A DNA stretch of 53,735 nt, taken from assembly GCA_023249935.1 (NCBI GenBank), contig JAHFBQ010000001.1, positions 1-53,735 on the forward strand. The letters are read 5' to 3'. Positions 350 to 42,640 of the stretch are shown one piece after another (within the stretch, counting starts at the first letter, position 1; every line of letters starts with the position of its first letter). The notes below the pieces were generated by a model that was not told where the DNA came from, ran no database searches, and worked only from the letters and a program-made list of their open reading frames with translations. The DNA comes from a bacterium. Its GTDB lineage: Bacteria > Babelota > Babeliae > Babelales > RVW-14. A program made the translations under genes and the position numbers.

Positions 350-380
350 TGCTGTGGTTGTCGATTTAATGGGAGTTTAT

Positions 381-10273: not shown

Positions 10274-10330
10274 AAAACTCTCTCTTTCTCAAGGCGGCGG
10301 CTACTCTCGAATCTAGTCTATGAGTGAATT

Positions 10331-13716: not shown

Positions 13717-13929
13717 TAATTCTCTCCATCTCAATGTGAAATTGCTTACTAACTGAAAGTTAGCAGGTTTTTCTAGGCATTCAAGTAGATTGTAATTGCT
13801 GAATATTTTGCCGGGTATATCTAAAACCCTTTACATCTGTAAAAGATGTGCAATCTTTGCTCTAGTAAAAAGAGGAAGGAGGCGCAGTGTGTTCTAAGAT
13901 GTAGTGCCATCATTAAAAAGCTTACTCAG

Positions 13930-16900: not shown

Positions 16901-17724
16901 TCTTCGGAGAGTATTCATACTCATTTCAAGCGCTTGATTTTATGCTTGCCAACAATCTTGCACCATCACGTATTGTACATATTCTGCGTAATGGAGAGTA
17001 CCCCAAAGCTCATCGTTCCGACCGCGAGCTACGCAGCTTAGACGGTATCGTAGTGGTTTTCGAGAAAGATACAAAAACCATTTGCGGCATTGGTACGATC
17101 AATGAACTTGATCTACTCAATGAGTATCCATCAAGAAAAACACACCAATGTATTCCCGACCAAGAGCCAGCGTCTTCTTCAGGTGTCTGTCTTCCTGAAA
17201 AAAATGCTGAAGAGTCATCCTGTGGGGGCAGCTGCGACAATACCGACACGACAAATACACATGGTTTATGCGGCAGCAGTTATAACAAAGAACATGAATT
17301 TCCCTCATCTTCGCCAAACGAAGGCTTACCAGAACCAGAAACTAAACCCTGCGCTTGGAGCCAACAGCCGCAGCTCCCGGGATTTGATGAGGATGGTGTG
17401 GTGGAAGTGCTTGCTGATGGAAGTAATCAAGTTTTGCCTGAGACAACTTCTTCTGAAGGTGATGATGGCAAAATAATATATAAGCACGGTTTTAAGTATC
17501 ATCCAAGAATAAGACAAAGAGGATTGCAGGACCCTAAGGCACACAATTTTCCATACTCATTTGACGATATTATTTTAAAAACTAACCCAATAAAACAAAA
17601 AGATGGCTCCTTATTGTACATATTAGAAGGAATTTTGAATGAAAAGCGCGGAGTGTTCGAAATCGCTATTAATACAGAAACTAAAACCATTTTTCATAGA
17701 ACATTTAGGGGATCAAAAAAATGA
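13930..17724 (+). CDS. Secreted polymorphic-toxin-like protein: signal peptide, N-terminal Hint-like domain, long mostly helical body, conserved pre-toxin region, variable C-terminal domain (CT1)
   Basis: Signal peptide MKYTRYLLLIVLLFNNNQMYA at ATG 13930 (the track start at 13846 adds a Cys/Lys-rich extension). Hint blocks lie at 13993-14397. The 3' constant region is repeated twice downstream. An immunity-like ORF overlaps the stop. Confidence 0.75.
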   Translation: MKYTRYLLLIVLLFNNNQMYAGLVAGTNIATNGQSVAIENLLRGDFVVGYDLKTQVYPVIAVTAVQLHRAVVTYAIATDRGVIVVTADQLLFDVVGKKFVTADQWSTMCIFLTKDMQQLPTREIKIDSAVAADCYDVSLEQPYLFFASDAQVLMHNNPLVLAVPLTLAAVELAPQLINLCMMLENAHSKAAVAVRRAQALTQPVVPTPILSEQVAKQPAQQMRIVQVSQATSQKNNQSIPRHEVQAVQPILSVAKSSKSNELFVSQPTQGYKFSDEAVQRAKSIDVKLLQNPIMYNDRHSEISVTGSINGDVVCSNESQSRGYLHINLNTERNNERVQEARDRDRWARRSGKRLIIKGNQHYFTPAWFLENAQALAEQTGMSLDDVLFTNFENFQYPNYLQVLHHRRNYDQKILELRDLLRQEEKGWFSSTTEGKKLNRRFCSGEGFKFFHGSDEVKLSELIERLAKKVEARQEDEHKKYLAWQAKQAEEAEVARQQALFAERIVRAKSCYNRVIAEQQLEVAAHSGLYEKYEEIVVHGRLYRSIDEPKAFSHVFKSVQNNDYSESYKKFLADRNMPILRQSRNDAAKAIDEIIREMYQADQHFGYLYDVVHAHSIALRLISVADRAEQYNDSPMMSAATAQLLEAARGFVRSAEQLGEYYVTSNMAAHHTTTTINHLIHKVLIPLERHAATVAGNKVSLPQELARSTVCPVTVLANLYKNPENKELAQQCKAVLADLLAEEEFIVQAAAKGSVQVPTETPLVKLATQAGNLGSCTAAQAPPYIPSATMARGRQKEFFRKVSISSNQGDREDISPEAFVNGAIIDCAHKHKESFEDKRQAVISDIKEYEKTLFDLTPRSVSIDEAAAQQLQNHAPSWITATMTGNGQVAVAAHCYRLASYDASTRAWHFIVDADEPALYDRMVPYVHEFVKAEEKRELDELRKLTAFWPQEIRYAFKIGWPVRKDQPQENSGKRIWQAQAAGIRHGNLARIFGEYSYSFQALDFMLANNLAPSRIVHILRNGEYPKAHRSDRELRSLDGIVVVFEKDTKTICGIGTINELDLLNEYPSRKTHQCIPDQEPASSSGVCLPEKNAEESSCGGSCDNTDTTNTHGLCGSSYNKEHEFPSSSPNEGLPEPETKPCAWSQQPQLPGFDEDGVVEVLADGSNQVLPETTSSEGDDGKIIYKHGFKYHPRIRQRGLQDPKAHNFPYSFDDIILKTNPIKQKDGSLLYILEGILNEKRGVFEIAINTETKTIFHRTFRGSKK
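13993..14397 (+). other. Degenerate Hint (intein/hedgehog-type) domain, Gly at position 1, terminal His-Asn retained
   Basis: G-LVAGTNIATNGQSVAIENLLRGDFVVGYD ... VIVVTADQLLFDVVGKKFVTADQW ... CYDVSLEQPYLFFASDAQVLMHN. Confidence 0.65.
17009..17396 (+). repeat. Pre-toxin handle, copy A (inside the full-length toxin gene)
   Basis: Manual alignment to 19221-19605 (copy C). This includes about 160 nt (17051-17209 vs 19263-19421) with only 3 mismatches. The 3' part also aligns to 18059-18240 (copy B). Confidence 0.9.
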
Positions 17725-18023
17725 AATATTTAACGTTAATGCCTGATTATACTGGGTCTTGTATTAGGGATGATTTTGAAGGTCAAATTGAACCAACTCT
17801 TTTGGGATTGCCACAAAGCTTTCTTAGAAGGTTATATACATGGCAAGATTTATATAAAAAAATAATTCCACTAGACCAAGATGAGCGTGAAAAAAAAATT
17901 CATGAAATAGAAAGATTGGACCAAGAAGGTCTTTCTCTTGCCAAGGAGTTAAGACAACTGATACCTGGTGGTGCTAAAGTAAAATACTTTAGTGAAGGGC
18001 TTGGGAAAATTATTCACAGCTAA
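17721..18023 (+). CDS. Putative immunity protein for CT1
   Basis: 100-aa ORF whose ATG overlaps the toxin stop (ATGA, 17721-17724). The call rests on position only; no family recognised. Confidence 0.6.
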   Translation: MKYLTLMPDYTGSCIRDDFEGQIEPTLLGLPQSFLRRLYTWQDLYKKIIPLDQDEREKKIHEIERLDQEGLSLAKELRQLIPGGAKVKYFSEGLGKIIHS

Positions 18024-18058
18024 ATTAATAACTATCCAATAATTCATCTGCTATCAAA

Positions 18059-18240
18059 CCATCATGCGGTGCTAGCAACAGTAATACTGACACGACAAAT
18101 ACACATGGTTCATGCGGCAATGGCAGCATGAGAGAATACGACCACCTCTCATCTTCACCAGACGAAGGCTTGCCAGAGCCAAAAACTCAACCCTGTGATT
18201 GGAGCCAACAGCCGCAGATCCCGGGATTTGATGAGGATGA
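18059..18240 (+). repeat. Pre-toxin handle, copy B (3' part only)
   Basis: Aligns to about 17214-17396 of copy A and encodes ...TDTTNTHGSCG...SSSPDEGLPEPKTQPCDWSQQPQIPGFDED. The frame is open from 18032, directly after the immunity-1 stop region. Confidence 0.85.
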
Positions 18241-18694
18241 AGAGGTTTGGGAGAAAGGTTCTCTGGAAATCGAAAAAGAACTTCCTAATAGCAAAGATAA
18301 TCAACAAGAGAGTGATAATAGTGGTTTGATTCCAGATGATAATAAGCTAGCTAGAGGGCGAGCTATAAATGAAAATGGAAGGGTTTTTGAGAAGTTTCTT
18401 GAAAAAGAACTTGGAGCTCGTGGAAGTTTTAGAGTCACAAGCAAAATAAACGGGACTCGAGAATTTGATGGAGCTGTAGGAAATGTTTGGTATGAGGCAA
18501 AAAGCGGCGAATATTGGAATTTATTGCTATCAAATGAGAAAAAGTTAGCAAAATTTAAATCTGATATGGGAAAAGGTTTGCAAATTACTCGCGAATATGG
18601 AGTAGCTTATCAACTTCACTCGAACACCCCTATTCCAGAAATTATAAAGAAATGGTTAATCAAAATGGAGATTCGATTTATTGAATGGTTATAG
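18128..18694 (+). CDS. Orphan toxin cassette 2: handle remnant fused to a PD-(D/E)xK-like (restriction-endonuclease-fold) candidate nuclease domain
   Basis: Homology to the big gene extends upstream of the ATG to 18032. Downstream of PGFDED comes a new domain containing REFDGAVGNVWYEAKSG (D-x8-E-x-K). Confidence 0.6.
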   Translation: MREYDHLSSSPDEGLPEPKTQPCDWSQQPQIPGFDEDEEVWEKGSLEIEKELPNSKDNQQESDNSGLIPDDNKLARGRAINENGRVFEKFLEKELGARGSFRVTSKINGTREFDGAVGNVWYEAKSGEYWNLLLSNEKKLAKFKSDMGKGLQITREYGVAYQLHSNTPIPEIIKKWLIKMEIRFIEWL

Positions 18695-18727
18695 TATTGT
18701 TCATCTCATGAAAATGAAAAGGTTGTT

Positions 18728-19210
18728 ATGTCAGTTTCAGCATCTTTTGATTTACGAGTTGTACGATCTTCAGGGAAAGAGCTTGCTTCTCAGATTGAGA
18801 TTATCAAAGCTCTAGCAAATTATGGATGGTCATTTTTTCGTGGCGAATATGTTTGCTATTTGCCTTATGGTGATAACGATAATTTTAATTGGACCGCTGA
18901 GATTATCAGTTTTGAATCGTTTTTAAAAATATTGGAACAAAAAGAAAAGAGATCCGAACTCATTGGAGTTTCAATGACATGGAAAAATTCGAACATTGAT
19001 GGAGAATTATTAATTTGGGGAGCTGAAGAGGCGAGAAAGAATAAAATTCACACACCAATATCATTCAATATGGCAGCAAATCGGAAACGATTTATTTCTC
19101 AAAATAATTATGAAATTACCGATGTTAATTGGTATATGGAAAAATTACTTCCTGCGCTTAATCAGAATGGTATGTATGTTGAGTATTTTTCTTATGAGGA
19201 ATATGACTAA
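18728..19210 (+). CDS. Putative immunity protein for orphan toxin 2
   Basis: 160-aa ORF 33 nt downstream of the orphan toxin, same strand, with AAAAGG before the ATG. The call rests on position only. Confidence 0.55.
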   Translation: MSVSASFDLRVVRSSGKELASQIEIIKALANYGWSFFRGEYVCYLPYGDNDNFNWTAEIISFESFLKILEQKEKRSELIGVSMTWKNSNIDGELLIWGAEEARKNKIHTPISFNMAANRKRFISQNNYEITDVNWYMEKLLPALNQNGMYVEYFSYEEYD

Positions 19211-19651
19211 CACTTTAAAACTCATCGCCACGACCGCGAGCTGCGCAGCCTAGACGATATTGTAGTGGTTTTCGAGAAAGATACAAAAACCATTTGCGGC
19301 ATTGATACGATCAATGAACTTGATCTACTCAATGAGTATCCATCAAGAAAGACACACCAATGTATTCCCGCCCAAGAGCCAGCGTCTTCTTCAGGTGTCT
19401 GTCTTCCTGAAAAAAATGCTGCCGAGCCTTCACGTGGCAGCGACGGCGACGATACTAACGCGACAAATATGCATGGTTCATGTGGCAGTACAAGAGAATG
19501 CGACCTCATCTCATCTTCACCAAACGAAGGATTGCCAGAGCCAAAAAATCAACCCTGTGGTTGGAGCAAACAGCCGCAGCTCCCAGGATTTGATGGGGAT
19601 GAGGAGGTGGGGAGCAATGTTGATCTGCAGCCAACGCTCTCTTTTGTATGA
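19211..19651 (+). pseudogene. Orphan handle copy C without a toxin domain (remnant)
   Basis: The frame is open directly after the immunity-2 stop: HFKTHRHDRELRSLDDIVVVFEKDTKTICGIDTINELDLL...WSKQPQLPGFDGDEEV, then 15 unrelated codons and a stop. There is no upstream start context apart from GTG 19265. Confidence 0.7.
19221..19605 (+). repeat. Pre-toxin handle, copy C
   Basis: See copy A. This is the longest and best-conserved duplicate. Confidence 0.9.
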
Positions 19652-20154
19652 GGAACTTTATGAACGGTGACTTTAAAGTCGCCGACCTCGATTGTTTGAC
19701 CTGGTGCTAGTTCAACAAATTTTACACATTTAGTTACCGTTGCTCCGGCAAATGCGAGATTAAGAAATGTTTTTACGTGATTTTCAATGCCTACTGGACC
19801 ATAAATAGTAAACGGGCTTGGTGCAGCAATATCTTCTCCAAGGTCATGGGACCACTGGTTTACATGTAACCACGTCAAAATATCTGGAAGGTCGCCAATA
19901 TGATCAAAATGAAAATGAGTATAAAAAGCGCCGTGTAGCGTGGTTACATCGACATGTTTTGTTGCTGCCTGCAGAATGCCAGGACCAGCATCGACAAAAA
20001 CATGTGTGTTGCCGGCGCTTACGAGGTTACCAGGAGCTTTGCGGTGTGGTTGTGGCATGCATGTGCCAGAACCAAGGATAGTAAGCTGCGCAGAATAAGC
20101 GGTTTGTTGTAGGGTGATAGAGAGTAGAGAAAAGAGTAGCTGCTTGATTGACAT
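19549..20154 (-). CDS. MBL-fold metallo-hydrolase with N-terminal signal-like sequence, apparently 3'-truncated (likely pseudogene)
   Basis: Motifs LTILGSGTCMP, HFHFDHIGD (HxHxDH) and VPHTKESVG (motif-3 His). The frame then runs into the reverse complement of handle copy C (...STLLPTSSSPSNPGSCGCLLQPQG*). The later Asp and His motifs are missing. Strong RBS AAGGGAGG. Confidence 0.6.
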   Translation of the reverse strand: MSIKQLLFSLLSITLQQTAYSAQLTILGSGTCMPQPHRKAPGNLVSAGNTHVFVDAGPGILQAATKHVDVTTLHGAFYTHFHFDHIGDLPDILTWLHVNQWSHDLGEDIAAPSPFTIYGPVGIENHVKTFLNLAFAGATVTKCVKFVELAPGQTIEVGDFKVTVHKVPHTKESVGCRSTLLPTSSSPSNPGSCGCLLQPQG

Positions 20155-20166
20155 GGGCGTCCTCCC

Positions 20167-20724
20167 TTAATCAAGTTCTTTATCTTCAATTTCTTCTTTA
20201 GTTGTAAGTCCACTGATAGCAAAAGCTCGTTTGAGAGCCATGGCTTCAGCAACTTTGAGGATCATAGCGTTGGTGTACTGCTGCCAGATTGGAGCATCTT
20301 TTTTGTAATATTCTTTTATGCTGACAAAGACGGTGGTTGCCTTGTCTCTGTCCTTACGAAATACGCTGCAATAGGCGCCTGACAGTTTGCTTTTATCAAA
20401 CAGCAGATGTTCCGGGCCATAAGAAATATGGAGGCTGCCATCATCTCGTTTGGTCAAAATGTCATTTTGATAAACAACATCACTCTCGATGCCATTAAAA
20501 TTTTCATTAAGATTGGCTATTTTTAGATAGCCATCTCTGCTAGTCAAAATCGTTGTTTTGCTGCCGTACTTAATAAAATAGATCTCTTTTTTTAACGGAT
20601 CTAGATTGTACTCTTTGCAGAGATACATAAAGGTCTTAAATTCGTCATCGGTGGCTCCAGGAGCCACCGATTTGCGTAGAAGTTCTTCGTTTTCATGAGC
20701 TGTTGTACCGGTTGTTTTTGCCAT
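20167..20724 (-). CDS. RecT/Bet-family single-strand annealing protein (short form)
   Basis: GATDDEFKTFMYLCKEYNLDPLKKEIYFI, SRDGYLKIA and ...IWQQYTNAMILKVAEAMALKRAFAISGLTTKEEI match my recollection of the phage Bet/RecT signature blocks. Confidence 0.7.
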   Translation of the reverse strand: MAKTTGTTAHENEELLRKSVAPGATDDEFKTFMYLCKEYNLDPLKKEIYFIKYGSKTTILTSRDGYLKIANLNENFNGIESDVVYQNDILTKRDDGSLHISYGPEHLLFDKSKLSGAYCSVFRKDRDKATTVFVSIKEYYKKDAPIWQQYTNAMILKVAEAMALKRAFAISGLTTKEEIEDKELD

Positions 20725-20745
20725 GATATGATCTGCGCTCTTTCT

Positions 20746-21843
20746 TTACACCGCCTGGCGGTACTTCTCAGATTCCATAGCGGCCAAATACTTTAATTCT
20801 TCGTCTTCCAAGAACTGAAGATCTTGAGGTGCGATATTTTGTGTAACATTAACCACAAGAACCGACAGGTGGAACTTGAGGACTTCTTCAATTTCACGTG
20901 CCTTGCGTACTGAATCTGCTACGAAGAAAATAAGGTCATTGCAGATGATGACGCGTGGATAATCACCAAAATTTTCTTTGAATTTATTCATGGTGTCAGT
21001 GTCGTTGAAATCGCTCAAAATTAGTAAGCGGCTGCCGCAGTACACCAAGGTATCAGGGAAAAACGGTTTCTGTAGGAACAAGGGCTTGGCATTGGTGATC
21101 AACTCTTTTAGGCCTGCATCGCAAGACAAGTAAGAGACTTTATTCAACCCAAAAACAGCATTAACGCTTTCAGAGATTACCGAGGTAAGGCGGTAGGTAT
21201 TATTGGTGATCTTGAGGAATTGTTCAATTTTGATAGTAACTTCTTCAGTCAAAAATTTAACTTCTTGAGCGGTTGCTGCGCTGACAATGAGCCCGTGATT
21301 CTGCAAGAAAATGATCGAAGGCTTTTTGCCATGTGCTTTGATGTACGAGGTTACTTGTGGTTCAAGTTCTAGTGCCAACTCAATGCCTACCGTTTTATAG
21401 GCAACGCAGAGGCTTTCTGGATACAATTCTGTAAAAAGTTCACGCCAATTCTTGCGGCAGGCAAGCGTGTTTACTACGATGCCGTGCGTGTGTAGCGTGT
21501 AAGTATCAAGATAGGCATGCAGAAATGTTTCAATAGAGGGGCGCGCTGAGGCGTTTTTATCTTTGACCTTCATAAGAAGTTCTTCAGCAGCTTTTTCAAG
21601 ATCACCCTTTTCAAGAGATTCTTGTTGTTTGTGCAGTTTAGTTAGGCCTTTGCGTAGCGGTGCAAGATCAATTGATACAAAGCCTTGCGCAGCACCTACC
21701 TCGCTCAAGCTGATACCAGATGCCTTGATAAGCATCTGGCCGTCTTCAGTTTTATAAGAAGAGTTGCCGCCGCCAGCTTGTACTAAATCAAAGCGTTGGC
21801 CGGCCCATTTCGACAATTCAATAAGATCAAATGGTGGAGTCAT
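20746..21843 (-). CDS. Class II aldolase/adducin-domain protein (like the aldolase half of bifunctional rhamnulose-1-phosphate aldolase/SDR proteins)
   Basis: Motifs AGGGNSSYKT...MLIKASGISLSEV, YTLHTHG and PDTLVYCG. 365 aa, with no SDR domain. Confidence 0.6.
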   Translation of the reverse strand: MTPPFDLIELSKWAGQRFDLVQAGGGNSSYKTEDGQMLIKASGISLSEVGAAQGFVSIDLAPLRKGLTKLHKQQESLEKGDLEKAAEELLMKVKDKNASARPSIETFLHAYLDTYTLHTHGIVVNTLACRKNWRELFTELYPESLCVAYKTVGIELALELEPQVTSYIKAHGKKPSIIFLQNHGLIVSAATAQEVKFLTEEVTIKIEQFLKITNNTYRLTSVISESVNAVFGLNKVSYLSCDAGLKELITNAKPLFLQKPFFPDTLVYCGSRLLILSDFNDTDTMNKFKENFGDYPRVIICNDLIFFVADSVRKAREIEEVLKFHLSVLVVNVTQNIAPQDLQFLEDEELKYLAAMESEKYRQAV

Positions 21844-22547
21844 GATAGCCTCTTTTCAAGGTCATAGAAGGTCGAACATGTTTTAAACAGTGAATGCTCT
21901 GGTTGAGTTGTACTTGGTTCAGGTGTGAGCCAATAGGTTTCCATGCCCAAATGTTGGGCGGGGATGATATCGGCTGCAAGGTCATCGCCGATCATGCATA
22001 ATTCTTCAGGGCGAAGCTGCATTTTTTTGCATGCGGCTAGAAAAATTTTTTGGTCAGGTTTTTCACAACCGACCTCTTCACTGGTAATGAGATAGGTGAT
22101 GAGGTGATCGATTCCAAGCTGTTCAAGTTTTTGGTACTGAATATCAGCAACAAAATTGGTGATGATTCCTATTCGATAGGTTTCTGCTAAGCGGCCTAGA
22201 GATTCATTGAGTCCAGGGAGGGGCTTCATTGTAGCAAAAAACGCTGCCCAGTATTGTTTATATAAATCAGTTGTGAGTTTGGGCGAAAAAGATCCAAGCT
22301 GCTCAAGCATTGCTTGAATATAAAGTAAGCGATGATGGGATGCTGCAGTTGCATGTAGACGACGTTTAACTTGCTGTTTGCCCTGTTCGTAAACAAGCTC
22401 CAATTCTGCTTTGGATATTTTAGAAAGGCTATGCAAGCAGTCTAAAACGACAGCAAGTCCTGCCTGGTGAGCGGGCTCGTATCTATACAACGTGTTATCA
22501 AGATCGAGCAAGAGGCCTTTTATTGTTCCAGTGTGACTAGCGTGCAT
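21840..22547 (-). CDS. HAD-superfamily hydrolase (phosphatase-like)
   Basis: Motif I LLLDLDNTLY, motif II ITNF, motif III/IV K...MIGDDLAADI. Strong RBS AAGGAGAG. ATGA overlap with the downstream gene. Confidence 0.8.
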   Translation of the reverse strand: MHASHTGTIKGLLLDLDNTLYRYEPAHQAGLAVVLDCLHSLSKISKAELELVYEQGKQQVKRRLHATAASHHRLLYIQAMLEQLGSFSPKLTTDLYKQYWAAFFATMKPLPGLNESLGRLAETYRIGIITNFVADIQYQKLEQLGIDHLITYLITSEEVGCEKPDQKIFLAACKKMQLRPEELCMIGDDLAADIIPAQHLGMETYWLTPEPSTTQPEHSLFKTCSTFYDLEKRLS

Positions 22548-24597
22548 TTCTCTCCTTCATGCTTTCACTAATAACCATTAAGCAGATAAACTGCACGAAG
22601 CCATCGAATCCGTCAAGCCATTCAAGCTTGCTTGCCAAAAGTTCTTCGATGTTTGGTAGCAAGTCAGCGTACAATTGATGAAGCACCTGTGGGGGTAGTG
22701 GCTTATCTAAAATGAGTTCCTGCGTGCGTAGATCATCTGCATAATTCCATTCAGGTGAGCTGCCTTCTTGGATGAGCGTTTGTAGTAATGGTTCAATTTT
22801 AACATTTGAATCGAATGTAATTTTCAATTGTACGGTAAAGGAGGCGTGAGGGTCACCTACTTCAAAGATATCTTTGGTGAAATAGTGGATGACGATGTCA
22901 GCAAATTCCTGCTGAGGTGTAATATATTTTTTTATATCTTCTGCGCGGCGACGCATTTGCTCGAGAATGCGTTCTTTGCTGTGGCCTCGTTCCCGCATGT
23001 CGCGCACAATCTTCCAATGCTGTTTAATTTCTTCTTGAGGGTCCAAATAAATCTTTATATCCACAAGTTTGCGCATTTTGGGCAAATACAATGGATGCAG
23101 CCCACTGAGTAAAATAAACTCTGTCGGTTCAATTTTGCGTGGAGCGTCAAATTTGCCTGAGTGGTGGTTGTAGTCAATGCGCCAAGCAGGCTGATTATTT
23201 TTGAGTAATAACAATTGATCTGCTTGGCGATGTAAAAAATTGGCTTTTGGGTTGAGGTGGGTTACTTCTTGCCAATGAGCATCGCCGCGTTCCCAACGAT
23301 GATCGCCATCGCCTTCAATCAAGGTTGCTCTATGCCCAAATATATTAGTGAATTGTTTCATGAGCGTGCTTTTACCGGTGCCGCTATCGCCGCTAATGCC
23401 GATGACTAAGTTTTGTTGCCGAGCATACAGTTCATTACTTTTGATACCGGTTTTGTACACAAAATAGATAACCAAAAATAAAACACTCTCGAGAAGTGTG
23501 AAAGCAATGCTAGCCAGCTTGTCATGGTGGATTTTGATATCGAGGGGGCTGCCTAAAAATAGGAGATCATTAATTCCTTTTTCATGATAGAAAAATACAA
23601 AAAATAGCAAGTAGGCAAGATTGAGTCCAAGATATAGCAACACGAGTAAGCGATTGTGCTGGTAATTGCGGATGAACAACAAGGCGACGAAGGGGAGCAT
23701 CCAGACATACCACGCCGGTGCAGGAATAATGAAAAATACCAGCAGTGCAAACGTAATGGCCAAAAAACTATCGAGGAGATCGAGATTGATTTTTTTATAG
23801 GTAAAAAATCGGCCATATAAAACGAGGAGCGCAAACAGAGGGACAAGTAGTTTTACGTAGCCAAGCTGTGCAAACACATCAAACACCATCATCTGCTTCT
23901 GGTGGGTCAATACCATGCGATAGAACCCTTCAGACATGATAAAAGGTGCAACAAAAAAGCCATACACCATTGCAGCTAAAGCACTAAACGATATCGCTGT
24001 TTTAAGACCATTGTTTTTCCATAAATAAATAGCGAGTAGAGGTCCTGCGGCTGCTACGTGAAATTTAGTTGCCAGTGCTGTGCCAAACACTGCGGCGGCC
24101 AGTAACGGGTTTTTTCTTCTGATTAGGTAGAGTGCTAAAAAGAGCAATGTAGTCGGAATGATGTCTAGCTGGGTATGAATGAATGAGGCGTAGAGGATGA
24201 TCGGTGAAAAAGAGAGAAAAAAAATGGTCTCCAATGCCTTGCCATTGCTAGATCTAAGCATGAGGTAGGTTAAGAGGCTGTCGGCGAGGAGGATTGGCAT
24301 TTTTAGGAGCAGTGCTTGTATGGCCAAAGAGGCACTAAATAAATGACCCATTTTGACAAACGATGTTAGTAGATACAGAGTTACCGGGTTGTATGGAAAT
24401 TCGATGCCGGTACCAAGTTGCCAAAAATGTTGCCATGGGTTGTCGCCATGTGTTGCAAAATGATCTACAAACGGTAAGAAAAATTTAGAAACAAATTCAG
24501 AACTAAAGATGACCAGAAAAAGAAACTTAATAGCGATACTTATGATGAATAGTAGCCGGTAATTATTAGCGCAAACACGATCCAACACTCTCTTCAT
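22537..24597 (-). CDS. Fusion protein: N-terminal GT-C-like (DUF2029/GT87/PIG-V-like) membrane domain + C-terminal phosphoribulokinase/uridine-kinase-family P-loop domain
   Basis: Multi-pass region 23413-24597 (HGDNPWQHFW...FPYNPVTLYLL...LLKMPILLADSLL). Kinase region 22537-23412 (VIGISGDSGTGKST, IEGDGDHRWERGD, THLNPKANFLH, SGLHPLY, KIVRDMRERGHSKE, ITPQQEFADIVI). AAGGAG lies 5 nt before ATG 24597 (track start 24684). Confidence 0.7.
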   Translation of the reverse strand: MKRVLDRVCANNYRLLFIISIAIKFLFLVIFSSEFVSKFFLPFVDHFATHGDNPWQHFWQLGTGIEFPYNPVTLYLLTSFVKMGHLFSASLAIQALLLKMPILLADSLLTYLMLRSSNGKALETIFFLSFSPIILYASFIHTQLDIIPTTLLFLALYLIRRKNPLLAAAVFGTALATKFHVAAAGPLLAIYLWKNNGLKTAISFSALAAMVYGFFVAPFIMSEGFYRMVLTHQKQMMVFDVFAQLGYVKLLVPLFALLVLYGRFFTYKKINLDLLDSFLAITFALLVFFIIPAPAWYVWMLPFVALLFIRNYQHNRLLVLLYLGLNLAYLLFFVFFYHEKGINDLLFLGSPLDIKIHHDKLASIAFTLLESVLFLVIYFVYKTGIKSNELYARQQNLVIGISGDSGTGKSTLMKQFTNIFGHRATLIEGDGDHRWERGDAHWQEVTHLNPKANFLHRQADQLLLLKNNQPAWRIDYNHHSGKFDAPRKIEPTEFILLSGLHPLYLPKMRKLVDIKIYLDPQEEIKQHWKIVRDMRERGHSKERILEQMRRRAEDIKKYITPQQEFADIVIHYFTKDIFEVGDPHASFTVQLKITFDSNVKIEPLLQTLIQEGSSPEWNYADDLRTQELILDKPLPPQVLHQLYADLLPNIEELLASKLEWLDGFDGFVQFICLMVISESMKERNAR

Positions 24598-24686
24598 ACG
24601 CTCTCCTTGTGCTTTGTTGAGCCTTGAGCATACTAAGTTTGAGAGAGTATGTAACCAATCTAAATGTAAAAATTCTGGAGGCATTA
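24598..24686. promoter_or_regulatory. Divergent intergenic control region between the GT-C/kinase operon and the plus-strand GT-C pair
   Basis: 89-bp gap flanked by clear SD sequences on both strands (AAGGAG for 24597, GGAGG for 24687). Promoter hexamers not confidently assigned. Confidence 0.4.
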
Positions 24687-26285
24687 ATGAGGCTGCAAAA
24701 GCTGCAGATGTTGTTGGGGATTTTACTTTTCGTTATTGCTATGGGTGTACTCGCACTTCCCTACTATCCTTGGGGTTTCATGCGGGATGATTATGGATTT
24801 TTAGCTCACGCCGCTGCTTATGTTCACGGCTGGTCTGAGTTTTTTAAGCCGCACAATGTTGTCGACTTCGTCTATTCATCAGCAATCAATCCGCCATTTT
24901 CTTGGAGTGGGTCTTTTTACCGGCCAATTCAATTTATTCATTTTGCTCTCGAATATCTTTTTTTTGGTACCAATGCCTATGCGTATCTGATATGGATAGT
25001 GTTTATGCATGCTGGAATAGTAGTAAGCTTATTTAGCATAGGACGTACATTTTTTTCTGCGCAGCGAGCATTTTTTGTTGCTTTGATAATTCTTCTCCAT
25101 CCGATGCTTATGTTGTGGATGGGGTGCTTTACTCAGCAAATTTACATTATTGATGTGGTTTATTTTCTGAGTATAACAGCGCTTCTGAAAAAATTTTGCG
25201 ATACCAACCATTGGCGATGGTATATGGCATCATGCTTATTGTTTTTTGTAGCTCTTTTTGCAAAAGAAACGTTGATAACTTATCCAGGGTGGGTTTTTAT
25301 AGCTCTTATATGGTATCTATTACAATGTGATCAATTAAAAAAATGGTATAACCAAGTTTTTCCTGCACTAAAAATAGCTAGTGGATACGTATTTGTAGGC
25401 ATTTTCTATCTCGCCTCAAGGTATCTGATTTTTGCGGGAGCGACTGATGGTGTGATAAAATTTTTTGGCTTCTCAAGCTGGCAGGCATTTGTTGCCAGGC
25501 AATCTGAGCGATTTTTTGATCTCGTAACCTATGTATGCAACTATCTTTATATTGGTATGGTGCCTGGAGGTAACTGGTTGCGCAAAATGGTGCTGGTTAT
25601 GTTGATTATTGGTCTTCTTGCATATCCCTTTATTCGTAAACGACAACTCCTGTTACTTTTTTTTCTTGGGTTTTCAATGCTGGCCGTAACGTGGCCAGCT
25701 TGGTTACTTTACTACCATACACGCTATGCCTATGCTGGATTGATATTTTTGTATTTCATCTTCTTGTTTGCCATTGATTTTTATTTGAATAAATTTGTGA
25801 GGCTACGTCGCATATCACCATTACTAGGATTTTGCGTAGTTGCTGTGCTTGGATGCAATGCAATCAGTATGCAACGAATAAAAAATAGTGTGCTTTCTAC
25901 GGTGACGGGAGCGGCGCGTGAACTTGCTGTCCAGGTGCATGAAACGGTGCGGCCGCTTATCTTTATAGGGTTGCCGCACTGTTGGTTTGCATCGGGAGCA
26001 GGACAACTAGTTAAACTTTTCTATCCACAAGATAAGCGGTTAGTAGATGTTGGAATTTTGCTCTTTGGTGGCGAAGAGTTTGGGCTTTTAAGCCAACATG
26101 ATGTCCGTGTTGAACGACGAGGAGATCTGGTTGATATCGGTCTTGCTGCGAATGATAACCTTAGCTTCTTGAATCACCAAAAAGAAGAACGTTTTGTGAG
26201 TATAAAACTCTCCTGGGAGTTGTTGACAGATAATGCAATCATTATCACCTGGGATTATAAGCGACACGGATTTAGGATTATTTAA
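24687..26285 (+). CDS. GT-C-fold membrane glycosyltransferase-like protein, PMT/TMTC-like paralog (long form)
   Basis: Motifs WGFMRDDYGFL, FYRPIQF...FGTNAYAYL, FAKETL, YIGMVPGGNW and HTRYAYAG. The C-terminal domain ends IIITWDYKRHGFRII. Confidence 0.7.
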   Translation: MRLQKLQMLLGILLFVIAMGVLALPYYPWGFMRDDYGFLAHAAAYVHGWSEFFKPHNVVDFVYSSAINPPFSWSGSFYRPIQFIHFALEYLFFGTNAYAYLIWIVFMHAGIVVSLFSIGRTFFSAQRAFFVALIILLHPMLMLWMGCFTQQIYIIDVVYFLSITALLKKFCDTNHWRWYMASCLLFFVALFAKETLITYPGWVFIALIWYLLQCDQLKKWYNQVFPALKIASGYVFVGIFYLASRYLIFAGATDGVIKFFGFSSWQAFVARQSERFFDLVTYVCNYLYIGMVPGGNWLRKMVLVMLIIGLLAYPFIRKRQLLLLFFLGFSMLAVTWPAWLLYYHTRYAYAGLIFLYFIFLFAIDFYLNKFVRLRRISPLLGFCVVAVLGCNAISMQRIKNSVLSTVTGAARELAVQVHETVRPLIFIGLPHCWFASGAGQLVKLFYPQDKRLVDVGILLFGGEEFGLLSQHDVRVERRGDLVDIGLAANDNLSFLNHQKEERFVSIKLSWELLTDNAIIITWDYKRHGFRII

Positions 26286-26286
26286 T

Positions 26287-27897
26287 ATGAATAATATAAA
26301 ACAGAGAAATATGCTGATCGTAATGGTGACGGTGTTTCTTATTGCTTCCTTAGTTGTTCTTGCACTTCCCTATACCTCCTGGGGTTTTATTACCGATGAT
26401 TTTGGGCTTGTGTGGCATAGCAGGGTTGAATCGCTGTGCGAACTGGGTAAGTTTTTTACTGAGATGGGGCTGCATACGTTTATGCAACCAATAAATTACA
26501 TGCCGTCCGAACAATCGTTTTTTGCTGTATTGTACCGTCCGTTGCTTTATGTTTTTTATGGGATTCAATATTTATTGTTTGGTTTTTCTGCCTATGGGTA
26601 CATGATAGTTTCGGCATTACTCCATGGCATCAATGCTGTTCTCGTCTGGTTAATTTTTAGAAAATATTTTTCAAAAACAATCGCCGCACTTGGTGCCGGG
26701 TACTTCTTATTTCATCTTTCAATGCTCAATTGGTTTGGTTGGGTGACAGCACAACAACATTTGTTAGCGCTGTTTTTTTCGCTGCTAGTATTTATTTGTT
26801 ATCAGTGTTTTATAGATTCTCAGCGTAAAATATACCTATTTTCGGCAATAGCCCTAGTTGCTTGCTCGTTGTTAACTCGTGAGACACTCATCGTATTGCC
26901 TGTCTGGGTAGTTTTTGCGTTGGTGTGGCATTGGCGTACGGCACAACATAAGTTTCTTCTGCTTGTTACCGCTGCATTGCCTGTTGCAGGATATTTTTGC
27001 TGGCGTATTAGTCAATTTCCCCTCAAGGCATCGAACAGTGATTTAACGTGGGTTACTCGAGGGGGCTTTGCTTTTTTCACGTTCCTTAGAGAACAGTTTT
27101 TAAATTATGTTACGTGGCTTGTTGATTTGACCAATCTTGGGTTTGTTCCCGGCGGTAATCGATTGCGCAAAGGGACGTTGATCATCATGGTAGTCATGCT
27201 GCTTGCCTACTTGTTTTGGAACTGTCGCAAGAAATCAACGGTGTTGTTTTTGCTAGCAAGTACTATTGCTTTTGCTTGGCCTTCAGTGATTCGCTTTTAT
27301 ACCTCGCGTTTTATGTACGAGGCATTACCCTTTTTTATTGCAGCAATTTTGCTGCTCATTTTTGAAAATGATATTTCATTCAGGCCGAAAGCGTTGATCT
27401 TCGGTGCTCTGATAGCATTTAATGGCATGATGTTCCCAAATTTTTTATCAGCGCGTGAAAAAACGTTGAAAGCTATTAACATTGCAGTTCACGATCTTGT
27501 CATGCAGCTACCAGAAAATTCGAAGTCGATTGTTTTTGTTGGTCTACCGTTTGGATGGTTTTGTACAAGTGTTGCTCAGGCTTGCTACATGACTGGGTTG
27601 TCAACATCGGTGCCGGTGTACTATGACAAGCAGACTTTTGTGTGGAGTGAGCTCGAGCCAGCCGGTATTTCTCCTGAGATTCAGATTCGGCGGATAAGTA
27701 AGTCGGTATTGGAGGTCACTCTTAACAAGCCTGTAATATTCGCATTTGGTGATCGTGGTACAAACTTTGGCATCAAAGAGTGGCGAGACGAAGATGATGC
27801 GACCGTGCTTCATTGGGATATGATAAACGATCGCTTTGAAACGCCAGACGTGGTAATCACCTGGGATTATGAAAAAAACTGTTTTCGGCTGCTATAA
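26287..27897 (+). CDS. GT-C-fold membrane glycosyltransferase-like protein, PMT/TMTC-like paralog (long form)
   Basis: Motifs WGFITDDFGLV, LYRPLLY...FGFSAYGYM..LLHGIN, LTRETL, NLGFVPGGNR and TSRFMYEALPFF. The C-terminus is VVITWDYEKNCFRLL. ATG 26287 lies 1 nt after the upstream stop. Confidence 0.7.
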   Translation: MNNIKQRNMLIVMVTVFLIASLVVLALPYTSWGFITDDFGLVWHSRVESLCELGKFFTEMGLHTFMQPINYMPSEQSFFAVLYRPLLYVFYGIQYLLFGFSAYGYMIVSALLHGINAVLVWLIFRKYFSKTIAALGAGYFLFHLSMLNWFGWVTAQQHLLALFFSLLVFICYQCFIDSQRKIYLFSAIALVACSLLTRETLIVLPVWVVFALVWHWRTAQHKFLLLVTAALPVAGYFCWRISQFPLKASNSDLTWVTRGGFAFFTFLREQFLNYVTWLVDLTNLGFVPGGNRLRKGTLIIMVVMLLAYLFWNCRKKSTVLFLLASTIAFAWPSVIRFYTSRFMYEALPFFIAAILLLIFENDISFRPKALIFGALIAFNGMMFPNFLSAREKTLKAINIAVHDLVMQLPENSKSIVFVGLPFGWFCTSVAQACYMTGLSTSVPVYYDKQTFVWSELEPAGISPEIQIRRISKSVLEVTLNKPVIFAFGDRGTNFGIKEWRDEDDATVLHWDMINDRFETPDVVITWDYEKNCFRLL

Positions 27898-38186: not shown

Positions 38187-38204
38187 TCTTAAAGGACAGG
38201 AGAA

Positions 38205-41116: not shown

Positions 41117-41147
41117 TTTTTTTTCAGTAACGTGAACTGAAATCGGT

Positions 41148-42611: not shown

Positions 42612-42640
42612 GGTATAATTTTTTGACAAGGGAGCGCGTC

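What the first reader, a model, noticed from the sequence alone, without database searches (positions are those of the whole stretch)
20746..24597. GT-C-like membrane domain fused to a phosphoribulokinase/uridine-kinase-type domain, in an operon with a HAD phosphatase and a class II aldolase-like protein
The 686-aa protein joins a multi-pass DUF2029/GT87/PIG-V-like domain (23413-24597) to a cytoplasmic P-loop domain. That P-loop domain has blocks (GISGDSGTGKST, EGDGDHRWERGD, THLNPKANFL, GLHPLY, KIVRDMRERGHSKE, ITPQQEFADIVI) that follow the PRK/uridine-kinase family. I do not know of a characterised glycosyltransferase with this fusion. The overlapping downstream genes are a HAD phosphatase and a protein like the aldolase half of rhamnulose-1-phosphate aldolase/SDR enzymes, a family that also contains ribulose-phosphate epimerases and dehydratases. 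Together they look like a self-contained route that phosphorylates and remodels a keto-sugar phosphate and hands it to a membrane transferase. That would be a possible new donor or envelope modification.
Basis: partly seen in the sequence, partly recalled or inferred. Interest (0 to 1): 0.7.

Follow-up and report, generated by a model that had tools for sequence, protein, structure and literature searches.

The report
Sugar kinase fused to membrane transferase
One intact gene joins a phosphoribulokinase-type sugar kinase to a membrane domain with a glycosyltransferase fold, and it marks a widespread, unstudied gene cassette that probably makes a new lipid-carried pentose-derived sugar for decorating the bacterial cell envelope.

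Summary
ORF 22537..24597 (-) is an intact 686-aa protein. Its N-terminal ~395 aa form a GT-C-fold membrane domain; the best structural matches are GPI mannosyltransferase I, PIGU, ArnT, ALG3/6 and PimE. Its C-terminal ~290 aa are a complete phosphoribulokinase (PRK) of the cyanobacterial/archaeal type, not a uridine kinase. Every PRK catalytic and Ru5P-binding residue is conserved.

The fusion appears obligate and is widespread: at least 516 species genomes in more than 10 phyla, and 776 protein clusters at 50% identity. The window comes from a Dependentiae (TM6) bacterium.

The HAD phosphatase and the class II aldolase-like genes are conserved neighbours, and in some genomes each is fused to the same protein. 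The route is not self-contained. The conserved cassette also holds a tandem nucleotidyltransferase, a small GT2, GtrA, a PLC-like protein and further GT-C proteins. Here the nucleotidyltransferase (12073..13734) and GT2 (11418..12122) lie about 7 kb away, across an apparent insertion. Seven GT-C paralogues flank the locus.

Best reading: Ru5P → RuBP → ribulose-1-P → remodelling → nucleotide activation → polyprenyl-phosphate carrier → envelope glycan. The substrates and the product are inferred, not shown. I found no report of this system.

The parts
22537..24597 (-). Fusion gene (686 aa plus stop): GT-C-fold membrane domain joined to a complete PRK-type kinase
   Evidence: Continuous ORF. Full-length homologues at 34-95% identity. 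AlphaFold model pLDDT 88, pTM 0.81.
23413..24597 (-). Membrane domain, aa 1-395: GT-C fold with about 12 transmembrane helices, both ends predicted cytoplasmic
   Evidence: Model pLDDT 92.9. Foldseek top hits are GPI-MT-I 9wno (TM 0.63), PIGU, ArnT, ALG3, ALG6 and PimE. GT87 is below threshold here and above threshold in homologues. Polar residues at least 95% conserved: K24, D106, Q143, D145, K178.
22537..23412 (-). PRK domain, aa 396-686: P-loop kinase core plus the C-terminal PRK sheet
   Evidence: PF00485 E 1.6e-39. NF005655 scores 202 bits. PDB PRKs match at E 1e-41, with 40% identity to Synechococcus PRK. Foldseek TM 0.77 to cyanobacteria-specific PRK 9qkp. Conserved in at least 95% of 296 sequences: D430, H433, R437, Y476, H478, R532, D533, R537 and the Walker A residues.
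24603..24608 (-). Shine-Dalgarno AAGGAG, 5 nt upstream of ATG 24597
   Evidence: Read directly from the sequence.
21840..22547 (-). HAD-IA phosphatase (235 aa); predicted to remove the 5-phosphate of a pentulose-1,5-bisphosphate
   Evidence: PF13419 E 7e-23. Best NCBIfam match is NF053830, ribulose-1,5-bisphosphate 5-phosphatase, at 164 bits, below the cut-off of 330. D15, D17, K163 and D188, plus cap residues H71 and R73, are conserved. Adjacent or fused in 52 of 54 loci.
20746..21843 (-). Class II aldolase-family Zn enzyme (365 aa)
   Evidence: PF00596 E 4e-15. It resembles the aldolase half of the bifunctional aldolase/SDR enzymes. The phosphate loop G24-G25-G26-N27-x-S29 and E105, H118, H120, H183 are at least 95% conserved. 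Present in 46 of 54 loci. Fused to GT-C-PRK in P0227.
12073..13734 (-). Tandem nucleotidyltransferase (553 aa): an NTP_transf_3/IspD-like half plus an RmlA/GlmU-like half
   Evidence: Pfam and NCBIfam matches. Both halves keep the P-x-x-G-x-G-x-R-F...K-P-L loop. 82% identical to the gene that directly follows the aldolase in L004, and 62-64% identical to those of Paenibacillus, Flavobacterium and Campylobacterales. Present in 45 of 54 loci.
11418..12122 (+). Small soluble GT2 (234 aa), orthologue of the cassette GT2
   Evidence: PF00535 E 3e-20. 57-59% identical to cassette GT2s of other phyla. Weak best NCBIfam hits include ArnC, the undecaprenyl-phosphate sugar transferase.
24624..26285 (+). 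Multi-pass PMT_2-like (GT-C-type) paralogue, transcribed divergently from the fusion gene
   Evidence: About 9 hydrophobic segments and paralogy to 26233..27897. The same family flanks the fusion in L001 and L004.
26233..27897 (+). Multi-pass PMT_2 GT-C paralogue
   Evidence: PF13231 E 6.9e-9. 65% identical to its L004 neighbour.
1549..9318 (-). Five further tandem paralogues of the same PMT_2-like multi-pass family: 1549..3309, 3278..4999, 4975..6417, 6414..7742, 7672..9318
   Evidence: Pairwise BLAST identities of 21-43% and 6-9 hydrophobic segments each. PMT_2 match for 7672..9318.
9287..10273 (-). GT2 with two C-terminal hydrophobic segments (328 aa). This resembles, from memory, the GtrB/ArnC polyprenyl-phosphate glycosyltransferases. 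Association with the cassette is tentative.
   Evidence: PF00535 E 7e-26. Two TM-like segments. 40% identical to a GT2 next to the cassette in L002.

Best explanation
The fusion gene is the signature of a conserved, uncharacterised cassette that makes and uses a sugar donor for the cell envelope.

Proposed steps:
1. The cytoplasmic PRK domain, held against the inner face of the membrane domain, phosphorylates C1 of ribulose-5-phosphate or a very close pentulose-5-phosphate, giving the 1,5-bisphosphate.
2. The HAD phosphatase removes the 5-phosphate, giving ribulose-1-phosphate. The net effect is to move the phosphate from C5 to C1 at the cost of one ATP.
3. The Zn-dependent class II aldolase-family enzyme acts on this ketose-1-phosphate, either epimerising it or cleaving and re-forming it.
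4. The tandem nucleotidyltransferase activates the product with a nucleotide.
5. The small GT2, with GtrA where present, loads it onto polyprenyl phosphate.
6. GT-C-fold proteins transfer it to an envelope acceptor. These are the seven PMT_2-like paralogues here, and possibly the fused domain itself.

Shown: domain identities, conserved catalytic residues, the obligate fusion, conserved synteny, and natural fusions with HAD, aldolase and GtrA.

Inferred: the substrate (Ru5P), the order of steps, the chemistry of the aldolase-like step, the nucleotide, the lipid carrier, the acceptor, and whether the fused membrane domain is a transferase or a lipid-binding scaffold.
For: PRK identity. The domain scores 202 bits on the cyanobacterial PRK model against 71-73 on uridine kinase. 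It matches PDB PRKs at E 1e-41 against 6e-12 for uridine kinase. The whole PRK fold is recovered, TM 0.77. The residues that the PRK structure papers name as the catalytic dyad and the Ru5P site are CrPRK D57, R64, Y103, H105, R159, D160 and R164 (10.1101/422709, PMC9978339). They map to D430, R437, Y476, H478, R532, D533 and R537. All are invariant in 28 sequences and at least 95% conserved in 296.

HAD. Its best NCBIfam match, here and in Virgibacillus, is the RuBP 5-phosphatase model. In haloarchaea that phosphatase forms an operon with a Zn class II aldolase that acts on ribulose-1-P (PMC9700705).

Aldolase. The Zn site and the phosphate loop are conserved.

Link to glycosylation. Every one of the 83 related loci carries nucleotidyltransferase or GT2 family members. 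In 54 loci with full flanks the counts are HAD 52, aldolase 46, tandem nucleotidyltransferase 45, small GT2 45, large multi-pass protein 40 and PLC-like protein 39. Fusions with HAD, Aldolase_II and GtrA exist. The window's nucleotidyltransferase and GT2 are orthologues of the cassette genes, at 54-82% identity.

Membrane domain. It has a GT-C fold.
Against: There is no biochemical data for any member. The PRK and HAD scores fall below the NCBIfam equivalog cut-offs (202 against 236; 164 against 330), so the substrates may differ from Ru5P and RuBP.

The phosphate of a ketose-1-phosphate is not on the anomeric carbon. It is therefore unclear how a nucleotidyltransferase plus a GT2 would make a conventional glycosyl donor from it.

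The fused GT-C domain has no invariant acidic residue in its first outer loop.

GtrA and the PLC-like gene were not found in this window.

The 83 loci are the best 80 matches to the query plus three loci chosen by hand, not a random sample.
Confidence: 0.55

Rival explanations
1. Catabolic shunt. [quoted passage not shown] The membrane domain only anchors the kinase, and the glycosylation genes are neighbours by coincidence.
For: In haloarchaea the same two enzyme families, a HAD RuBP 5-phosphatase and a Zn class II aldolase, form an operon that does exactly this (PMC9700705). The HAD's best NCBIfam match is that phosphatase. The aldolase Zn site is intact.
Against: All 83 related loci carry nucleotidyltransferase or GT2 family genes. 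GtrA is fused to the GT-C-PRK protein in several clusters. The nucleotidyltransferase and GT2 are the most conserved genes of the set. The shunt would spend one ATP per pentose with no gain over the pentose phosphate pathway. The aldolase belongs to a different subfamily from FucA, closer to the aldolase half of the aldolase/SDR enzymes. An obligate fusion to a 12-helix conserved domain is hard to explain as a mere anchor.
Confidence: 0.12
2. Lipid-presented substrate. The GT-C-fold domain is not a transferase. It is a lipid-binding module, like PIGU in the GPI transamidase, that presents a polyprenyl-phosphate-linked or glycolipid-linked pentulose to the kinase. The kinase therefore phosphorylates a membrane-bound intermediate, and the HAD later removes a phosphate from that lipid-linked product. 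From my own knowledge this would resemble decaprenyl-phosphoribose-5-P phosphatase in mycobacteria.
For: The fusion is obligate, and the last helix (to aa 391) runs almost directly into the first kinase strand at aa 397. PIGU, a non-catalytic GT-C-fold protein, is the second-best structural match. The first outer loop has no invariant acidic residue. GtrA-GT-C-PRK fusions exist.
Against: The full set of residues that bind the free 5-phosphate of Ru5P is conserved, which fits a small soluble sugar phosphate. The HAD resembles phosphatases of soluble sugar phosphates.
Confidence: 0.15
3. Uridine or nucleoside kinase supplying UTP or UMP for a fused glycosyltransferase, as public annotations suggest ('uridine kinase').
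For: Source annotations read 'uridine kinase'. The Pfam family PF00485 covers both kinases.
Against: Uridine kinase models score 71-73 bits against cut-offs of 180-220, whereas the PRK model scores 202. PDB uridine kinases match at E 6e-12 against PRKs at 1e-41. The C-terminal PRK-specific sheet is present. The PRK sugar-phosphate site is conserved.
Confidence: 0.03
4. Assembly or gene-calling artefact that joins two separate genes.
For: None found.
Against: The ORF is continuous. A 95% identical 686-aa protein comes from an independent assembly, and there are hundreds of fused homologues, including ones in complete genomes.
Confidence: 0.01

Closest known systems
Phosphoribulokinase of the plant/cyanobacterial and archaeal type (e.g. 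Synechococcus 6HZK, Methanospirillum 5B3F, 'cyanobacteria-specific PRK' 9QKN/9QKP)
   Same: P-loop kinase core plus the C-terminal sheet. 40% identity over 219 residues to Synechococcus PRK. The catalytic Asp/His dyad and the Arg/Tyr residues that bind Ru5P are conserved.
   Different: It is fused behind a 395-aa membrane domain and occurs in heterotrophs, in envelope-glycan loci. No RuBisCO gene was seen in this window or noted in the related loci. The redox Cys pair is absent (T and E at those positions). The score is below the NCBIfam PRK cut-off, and only profile positions 6-204 of 326 align.
GT-C glycosyltransferases and GT-C-fold proteins: GPI mannosyltransferase I (PIG-M/Gpi14), PIGU, ArnT, ALG3/ALG6, PimE (GT87)
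   Same: The same membrane fold: TM-score 0.45-0.63, Foldseek probability 1.0. The N-terminus is predicted cytoplasmic and is followed by a long first loop with two short helices. Some homologues score above threshold on GT87.
   Different: No sequence match to any solved structure. No invariant Asp/Glu in the first outer loop. A cytoplasmic kinase replaces the C-terminal periplasmic domain that, from memory, ArnT and PglB carry.
Non-carboxylating pentose bisphosphate pathway of haloarchaea (HAD RuBP 5-phosphatase + FucA-type ribulose-1-P aldolase operon; PMC9700705)
   Same: A HAD whose nearest NCBIfam model is that phosphatase, next to a Zn class II aldolase-family gene and downstream of an enzyme that should make RuBP.
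   Different: RuBP would come from PRK rather than from ribose-1,5-bisphosphate isomerase. The aldolase belongs to a different subfamily. The genes are embedded in a glycosylation cassette rather than in a nucleoside catabolism operon.
Nucleotide-heptose synthesis (kinase HddA/HldE, phosphatase GmhB, nucleotidyltransferase HddC/HldE); recalled from established knowledge, not tested here
   Same: The same logic: sugar-ω-phosphate → kinase → 1,ω-bisphosphate → HAD phosphatase removes the distal phosphate → sugar-1-phosphate → nucleotidyltransferase.
   Different: The kinase fold differs. The substrate here is a ketopentose, so C1 is not the anomeric carbon. The nucleotidyltransferase is a tandem duplicate.
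Mycobacterial decaprenyl-phosphoarabinose system (PRPP → DPPR → 5-dephosphorylation → 2'-epimerisation; GtrA-like Rv3789; multiple Emb/Aft GT-C enzymes); recalled from established knowledge, not tested here
   Same: A pentose-5-phosphate is activated at C1, dephosphorylated at C5 later, remodelled, carried on polyprenyl phosphate, accompanied by a GtrA-family protein, and used by an expanded set of GT-C paralogues (seven in this window).
   Different: Entirely different enzymes do the activation and the transfer to lipid: PRK, a nucleotidyltransferase and a GT2 in place of PRPP synthetase and a UbiA-type transferase. A class II aldolase-family enzyme stands where DprE1/E2 act.
Three-component polyprenyl-phosphate glycosylation systems (GtrA/GtrB/GtrV, ArnC/ArnT, CsbB/GtcA/YfhO); recalled from established knowledge
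   Same: GT2, a GtrA-family protein and GT-C-fold proteins occur in one locus.
   Different: The GT2 is a short soluble form. A dedicated sugar-phosphate branch (PRK, HAD, aldolase, tandem nucleotidyltransferase) is built in. One GT-C-fold domain carries the kinase.

Membership tests
Phosphoribulokinase (EC 2.7.1.19), plant/cyanobacterial/archaeal type | Walker A P-loop (G-x-x-G-x-G-K-S/T) | tested here: met
   GDSGTGKST at aa 403-411. G403, D404, S405, G408 and K409 are at least 95% conserved.
Phosphoribulokinase (EC 2.7.1.19), plant/cyanobacterial/archaeal type | Catalytic Asp/His dyad (CrPRK D57/H105; PMC9978339) | tested here: met
   D430 and H478 align to these residues and are invariant.
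Phosphoribulokinase (EC 2.7.1.19), plant/cyanobacterial/archaeal type | Ru5P-binding residues R64, Y103, R159, D160, R164 (10.1101/422709) | tested here: met
   R437, Y476, R532, D533 and R537 are at least 95% conserved in 296 sequences.
Phosphoribulokinase (EC 2.7.1.19), plant/cyanobacterial/archaeal type | Whole PRK fold, including the C-terminal sheet | tested here: met
   Foldseek aligns about 309 columns, TM 0.77 normalised to 9qkp and 0.69-0.74 to 5b3f.
Phosphoribulokinase (EC 2.7.1.19), plant/cyanobacterial/archaeal type | Score above the curated NCBIfam cut-off | tested here: not met
   NF005655 scores 202.1 bits against a cut-off of 236, and only profile positions 6-204 of 326 align.
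Phosphoribulokinase (EC 2.7.1.19), plant/cyanobacterial/archaeal type | ATP-dependent conversion of Ru5P to RuBP | not testable with these tools
   Needs an enzyme assay.
Uridine kinase (Udk) | Score above the curated equivalog cut-off | tested here: not met
   NF004018 scores 72.8 against 180; TIGR00235 scores 71 against 220. PDB uridine kinases match at E 6e-12 against PRKs at 1e-41.
GT-C glycosyltransferase superfamily | Multi-pass GT-C membrane fold | tested here: met
   The first 15 Foldseek matches are all GT-C-fold proteins. The best is 9wno, TM 0.63, probability 1.0.
GT-C glycosyltransferase superfamily | Conserved catalytic Asp/Glu in the first extracytoplasmic loop | tested here: not met
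   No residue of aa 31-70 is an invariant acid. Position 34 is Asp or Glu in 186 of 296 sequences and Gly in 52. D106 and D145 are invariant but lie elsewhere.
GT-C glycosyltransferase superfamily | Pfam GT87 (PF09594) gathering score | tested here: not met
   16.7 bits against 25 for the window protein. Homologues P0089 (31.2) and P0248 (32.6) pass.
GT-C glycosyltransferase superfamily | Transfer from a polyprenyl-phosphate-linked sugar donor | not testable with these tools
   Needs biochemistry.
RuBP 5-phosphatase (NF053830, HAD) | Score above the equivalog cut-off | tested here: not met
   163.8 bits against 330. It is still the best model, ahead of TIGR02253 at 129.8.
RuBP 5-phosphatase (NF053830, HAD) | HAD catalytic motifs | tested here: met
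   D15-x-D17, K163 and G187-D188 are at least 95% conserved in 75 sequences.
Class II (Zn) aldolase/epimerase family (PF00596) | Pfam gathering score, the Zn ligands (Glu + 3 His) and the phosphate-binding loop | tested here: met
   56.6 bits against 22.2. E105, H118, H120, H183 and G24-G25-G26-N27-x-S29 are at least 95% conserved in 68 sequences. Assigning these residues to Zn and phosphate binding rests on my recall of FucA.
Class II (Zn) aldolase/epimerase family (PF00596) | Specific reaction (aldol cleavage, epimerisation or dehydration) | not testable with these tools
   All NCBIfam equivalogs score far below their cut-offs.
Three-component polyprenyl-phosphate glycosylation system | GT2 polyprenyl-phosphate glycosyltransferase in the locus | tested here: inconclusive
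   GT2 genes lie at 11418..12122 and 9287..10273. Similarity to ArnC is only 46-52 bits against a cut-off of 529.
Three-component polyprenyl-phosphate glycosylation system | GtrA-family membrane protein | tested here: not met
   tblastn with the GtrA-family queries found no GtrA gene in the window at E 1e-3. GtrA is present in other loci and is fused to the GT-C-PRK protein in P0188, P0209, P0234 and P0248.
Three-component polyprenyl-phosphate glycosylation system | GT-C transferase | tested here: met
   The window holds seven PMT_2-like paralogues plus the fused GT-C-fold domain.

The most novel reading that the evidence does not exclude
RuBP, so far known mainly as the CO2 acceptor of RuBisCO, is here an anabolic intermediate. 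A PRK fixed to a GT-C-fold membrane protein starts a route that moves the phosphate of ribulose from C5 to C1. The resulting ketopentose-1-phosphate becomes a previously undescribed nucleotide-activated, polyprenyl-phosphate-carried sugar, which families of GT-C enzymes use to build envelope glycans in more than 500 bacterial species from over ten phyla. As a corollary, this heterotrophic PRK family, which is present in Melainabacteria and is 40% identical to cyanobacterial PRK, could be close to the ancestor of the Calvin-cycle enzyme.
Probability: 0.3. Interest if true: 0.85.

Novelty: new variant of a known kind. Interest (0 to 1): 0.66.

Why it matters
If the reading is right, it matters in four ways.
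1. It defines a new sugar-donor pathway and probably a new envelope sugar. The carriers include gut Lachnospiraceae, Clostridium and Bacteroides, Leptospira, Paenibacillus, Campylobacterales, Melainabacteria and the intracellular Dependentiae. Surface glycans shape host and phage interactions.
2. It would give PRK and RuBP a role outside carbon fixation.
3. It offers a testable candidate for the non-photosynthetic relatives of Calvin-cycle PRK.
4. It provides a clear genomic marker, the GT-C-PRK fusion, for finding the cassette. Several cultured carriers are available for genetics and biochemistry.

Tried and rejected
- Sequence search of the membrane domain against the PDB found nothing, even at E 10. 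The fold had to be assigned from a model.
- Foldseek with the full-length model returned only kinase matches. The membrane domain was therefore modelled and searched on its own.
- The ~196-aa core cassette protein ('c3', absent from this window) gave no meaningful hit against the PDB as a profile, or against Pfam sequence by sequence. Only a UniRef name ('PI-PLC/glycerophosphodiester phosphodiesterase...') and my reading of an H-R...E-x-D...H-D pattern suggest a PLC-like phosphodiesterase.
- tblastn for c3 and GtrA in the window found no homologue of either.
- Ten literature searches found no paper on the fusion or the cassette ([rejected as malformed], 16, 17, 33, 46, 55, 56, 61, 77, 78). They combined PRK with glycosyltransferase, GtrA, GT-C, Dependentiae or undecaprenyl, and also covered pentulofuranose residues and class II aldolase with GtrA.
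- Promoter and terminator scans of 19000..25200 were at chance level.
- The genes flanking the cassette in Lachnospiraceae (MurG, PGI, DegV, MBOAT, an exo/endonuclease-phosphatase family protein) look like housekeeping neighbours and say nothing about the sugar.
- The uridine-kinase reading and the artefact reading were rejected on scores and on the number of fused homologues.
- Topology could not be settled. Two 12-helix models fit N-in/C-in, and they place H141, Q143, D145 and K178 on opposite faces of the membrane.

Full report
1. What is in the sequence

Three genes lie on the minus strand with overlapping ends, which suggests translational coupling. They are 22537..24597 (686 aa), 21840..22547 (235 aa, 11-nt overlap) and 20746..21843 (365 aa, ATGA overlap). 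An AAGGAG Shine-Dalgarno sits 5 nt before the ATG at 24597, and homologues begin at the same residue. The 686-aa reading is therefore preferred over the 715-aa ORF.

The window has about 42% G+C. Its nearest relatives are Dependentiae (TM6) genomes: the fusion protein is 74% identical to that of a TM6 GW2011_GWF2_37_49-type MAG and 95% identical to a protein from an unnamed assembly. The order HisRS, an orphan gene, MurE, multi-pass protein, fusion, HAD, aldolase is shared with that MAG.

2. The kinase half is a phosphoribulokinase

Pfam places aa 398-572 in PF00485 at E 1.6e-39. That family covers both PRK and uridine kinase, but the finer models separate them. The cyanobacterial PRK model scores 202 bits (cut-off 236), while uridine kinase models score 71-73 bits (cut-offs 180-220). 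Against solved structures, cyanobacterial, plant and archaeal PRKs match at E 1e-41 to 1e-32, uridine kinases at about 1e-11, and proteobacterial PRK at 1e-5. Identity to Synechococcus PRK is 40% over 219 residues.

The AlphaFold model of the whole protein (pLDDT 88, pTM 0.81) aligns its last ~300 residues with complete PRK structures. TM is 0.77 to the 'cyanobacteria-specific PRK' 9QKP and 0.69-0.74 to Methanospirillum PRK. The PRK-specific C-terminal sheet is therefore present too.

The structure papers name the catalytic dyad as D57/H105. They name the Ru5P site as R64, Y103, R159, D160 and R164 in Chlamydomonas numbering. In the pairwise alignment these fall on D430, H478, R437, Y476, R532, D533 and R537. 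All are invariant in 28 diverse homologues and at least 95% conserved in 296. The redox cysteines of photosynthetic PRKs are absent.

The domain works like a PRK. It does not reach the curated cut-off for formal membership.

3. The membrane half has a GT-C fold

By sequence it is nearly orphan. It gives a sub-threshold GT87 hit and no PDB hit at all, although homologues P0089 and P0248 pass the GT87 threshold.

Modelled alone, it is confident (pLDDT 92.9, pTM 0.92). Foldseek then returns only GT-C-fold proteins at the top: GPI mannosyltransferase I (TM 0.63), PIGU, ArnT, ALG3, ALG6, PimE, ALG9, STT3 and Emb.

Charge distribution fits an N-terminus inside, an acidic first loop outside, and basic loops at 266-271, 312-316 and 392-397 inside. 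That gives 12 membrane spans and a cytoplasmic kinase.

One canonical feature is missing. No acidic residue of the first outer loop (aa 31-70) is invariant; position 34 is Asp or Glu in only 63% of sequences. The polar residues that are at least 95% conserved are K24, D106, Q143, D145 and K178. I could not place them on a membrane face without coordinates. The domain may be a transferase with an unusual active site, or a lipid-binding module like PIGU.

4. The fusion appears obligate and is widespread

They span TM6, Melainabacteria (Obscuribacterales, Gastranaerophilales), Planctomycetales, Leptospira, Campylobacterales, Paenibacillus, Virgibacillus, Halobacillus, Clostridium, Lachnospiraceae, Bacteroides, Flavobacterium, Cloacimonadota, Bryobacterales, Bacteriovoracales, gammaproteobacteria and others.

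Searching 1.84 billion cluster representatives with the membrane domain alone gave 776 hits at E ≤ 1e-3 and 153 at E ≤ 1e-30. Nearly all of the best 150 are 660-750 aa long, that is, fused. The shorter ones look like fragments.

5. The neighbourhood

I called ORFs in 83 related loci plus the window and clustered them. A cassette recurs: fusion, HAD (~232 aa), aldolase-like (~357 aa), a ~550-aa tandem nucleotidyltransferase (sometimes split in two), GtrA (~132 aa), a small soluble GT2 (~236 aa), a ~196-aa protein ('c3'), and a 520-590-aa multi-pass protein.

In the 54 loci with at least 5 kb on both sides, the counts within 6 kb of the fusion gene are HAD 52, aldolase 46, tandem nucleotidyltransferase 45, small GT2 45, multi-pass protein 40, c3 39 and GtrA 15. 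Every locus has nucleotidyltransferase or GT2 family members.

Pfam and NCBIfam confirm these identities in Virgibacillus and in the window. RefSeq gives the five Virgibacillus cassette proteins that could be looked up only generic family names. c3 is 'hypothetical protein' there, and UniRef calls it a PI-PLC/GDPD-type phosphodiesterase.

Natural fusions tie the parts together:
- GT-C-PRK-HAD (P0074, 918 aa)
- GT-C-PRK-Aldolase_II (P0227, 1058 aa)
- GtrA-GT-C-PRK (P0188, P0209, P0234, P0248)
- an apparent GtrA-aldolase ORF in L043

6. The window's version

The nucleotidyltransferase (12073..13734) and the GT2 (11418..12122) are clear orthologues of the cassette genes. The nucleotidyltransferase is 82% identical to the gene that directly follows the aldolase in the TM6 MAG and 62-64% identical to those of Paenibacillus, Flavobacterium and Campylobacterales. 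The GT2 is 57-59% identical to cassette GT2s of other phyla. They are the most conserved genes of the set: median identity is 54-56%, against 35-42% for the other genes.

Here they are separated from the aldolase by about 6.9 kb. That stretch carries a RecT/Bet-like gene, a truncated metallo-beta-lactamase-fold gene and several orphans, so it looks like an insertion. GtrA and c3 were not found in the window.

Seven paralogous PMT_2-like multi-pass proteins surround the cassette: five at 1549..9318 and two at 24624..27897.

7. Mechanism

The conserved PRK site argues for C1 phosphorylation of Ru5P or a near analogue.

The HAD's closest curated model, in two phyla, is the haloarchaeal RuBP 5-phosphatase. 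Conserved His and Arg in its cap would suit a second phosphate.

In haloarchaea that phosphatase is encoded in an operon with a Zn class II aldolase that acts on the product, ribulose-1-phosphate. The aldolase-like protein here keeps the Zn ligands and the phosphate loop. The three genes therefore most likely run Ru5P → RuBP → ribulose-1-P → an aldolase-family step.

Their invariable company of nucleotidyltransferase, GT2, GtrA and GT-C proteins points elsewhere than catabolism. So does the same kinase-phosphatase-nucleotidyltransferase logic in nucleotide-heptose synthesis (my own knowledge). Together they indicate that the ketose-1-phosphate or its derivative is nucleotide-activated, put on polyprenyl phosphate and used for an envelope glycan.

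The expanded GT-C set and the GtrA link recall the mycobacterial decaprenyl-phosphoarabinose system (my own knowledge).

Open points:
- The C1 phosphate of a ketose is not anomeric. The donor may therefore be an NDP-pentulose of the CDP-xylulose type, a C2-linked NMP-ketose of the CMP-Kdo type, or something else. These options come from my own knowledge and were not tested.
- The role of the second nucleotidyltransferase half is unknown. Both halves keep the nucleotide loop.
- The roles of c3 and of the fused membrane domain are unknown.

8. Rivals

A purely catabolic shunt is disfavoured by the synteny, the fusions and the ATP cost. A kinase acting on a lipid-presented substrate remains possible. 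Uridine kinase and artefact readings are excluded by the scores and by the number of fused homologues.

9. Novelty

Nothing in the searchable literature describes the fusion or the cassette, and public annotations are generic. All component families are known, and the overall logic has precedents. I therefore class it as a new variant of a known kind, with a real chance of a new donor sugar and a new role for RuBP.

Noticed in passing
window 13846..20724: About 6.9 kb lies between the aldolase-like gene and the tandem nucleotidyltransferase. It carries a RecT/Bet-like recombinase (20167..20724, -), a truncated MBL/RNase-Z-like ORF (19549..20154, -), small orphans, and a 1292-aa orphan (13846..17724, +) whose C-terminal region is 56% identical over 57 aa to the 188-aa ORF at 18128..18694. 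In the closest genome (L004) the nucleotidyltransferase follows the aldolase directly, so this looks like an insertion, possibly a mobile-element or prophage remnant.
   Followed up: partly
window 1549..9318 and 24624..27897: Seven paralogous PMT_2-like multi-pass (GT-C-type) genes, 21-43% identical to each other, flank the cassette. This is a striking expansion if the source genome is as small as those of other Dependentiae.
   Followed up: partly
L034:14463-15053 and the equivalent gene in 39 of 54 related loci (absent from the window): A ~196-aa soluble protein, 53-70% identical across phyla, always sits next to the cassette GT2. It has no Pfam, NCBIfam or PDB match. UniRef names it as a PI-PLC/glycerophosphodiester phosphodiesterase type. 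Its role in the pathway is unexplained.
   Followed up: partly
window 12073..13734: The nucleotidyltransferase is an internal tandem duplication whose halves are 27% identical. Both halves keep the P-x-x-G-x-G-x-R-F...K-P-L nucleotide loop. In some genomes it is split into two ~260-aa genes.
   Followed up: partly
window 22537..23412 (PRK domain); loci L005, L007-L009, L014, L016-L018, L020, L023, L029, L031, L032, L075: The PRK domain is much closer to cyanobacterial, plant and archaeal PRK than to proteobacterial PRK. The fused family is common in Melainabacteria, the non-photosynthetic sister group of Cyanobacteria (my own knowledge). This may bear on the origin of Calvin-cycle PRK. No phylogeny was made.
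   Followed up: no
window 37182..44593: A second envelope-related group of genes: an NAD-dependent epimerase/dehydratase (37182..38186), another PMT_2-like multi-pass protein (39734..41116), an FAD amine-oxidase/NAD_binding_8 protein (41148..42611) and an asparagine synthase (42623..44593).
   Followed up: no
window 354..1556: An AAA_14/DUF4143 ATPase gene lies at the left edge of the GT-C paralogue array.
   Followed up: no
window 9287..11386: A 328-aa GT2 with two C-terminal hydrophobic segments (GtrB/ArnC-like architecture) sits next to a 351-aa, seven-segment membrane protein with no family match. That protein is weakly similar to the PMT_2-like paralogue at 26233..27897 (24% over 279 aa). 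Together they could be a second lipid-sugar synthase and its partner.
   Followed up: no
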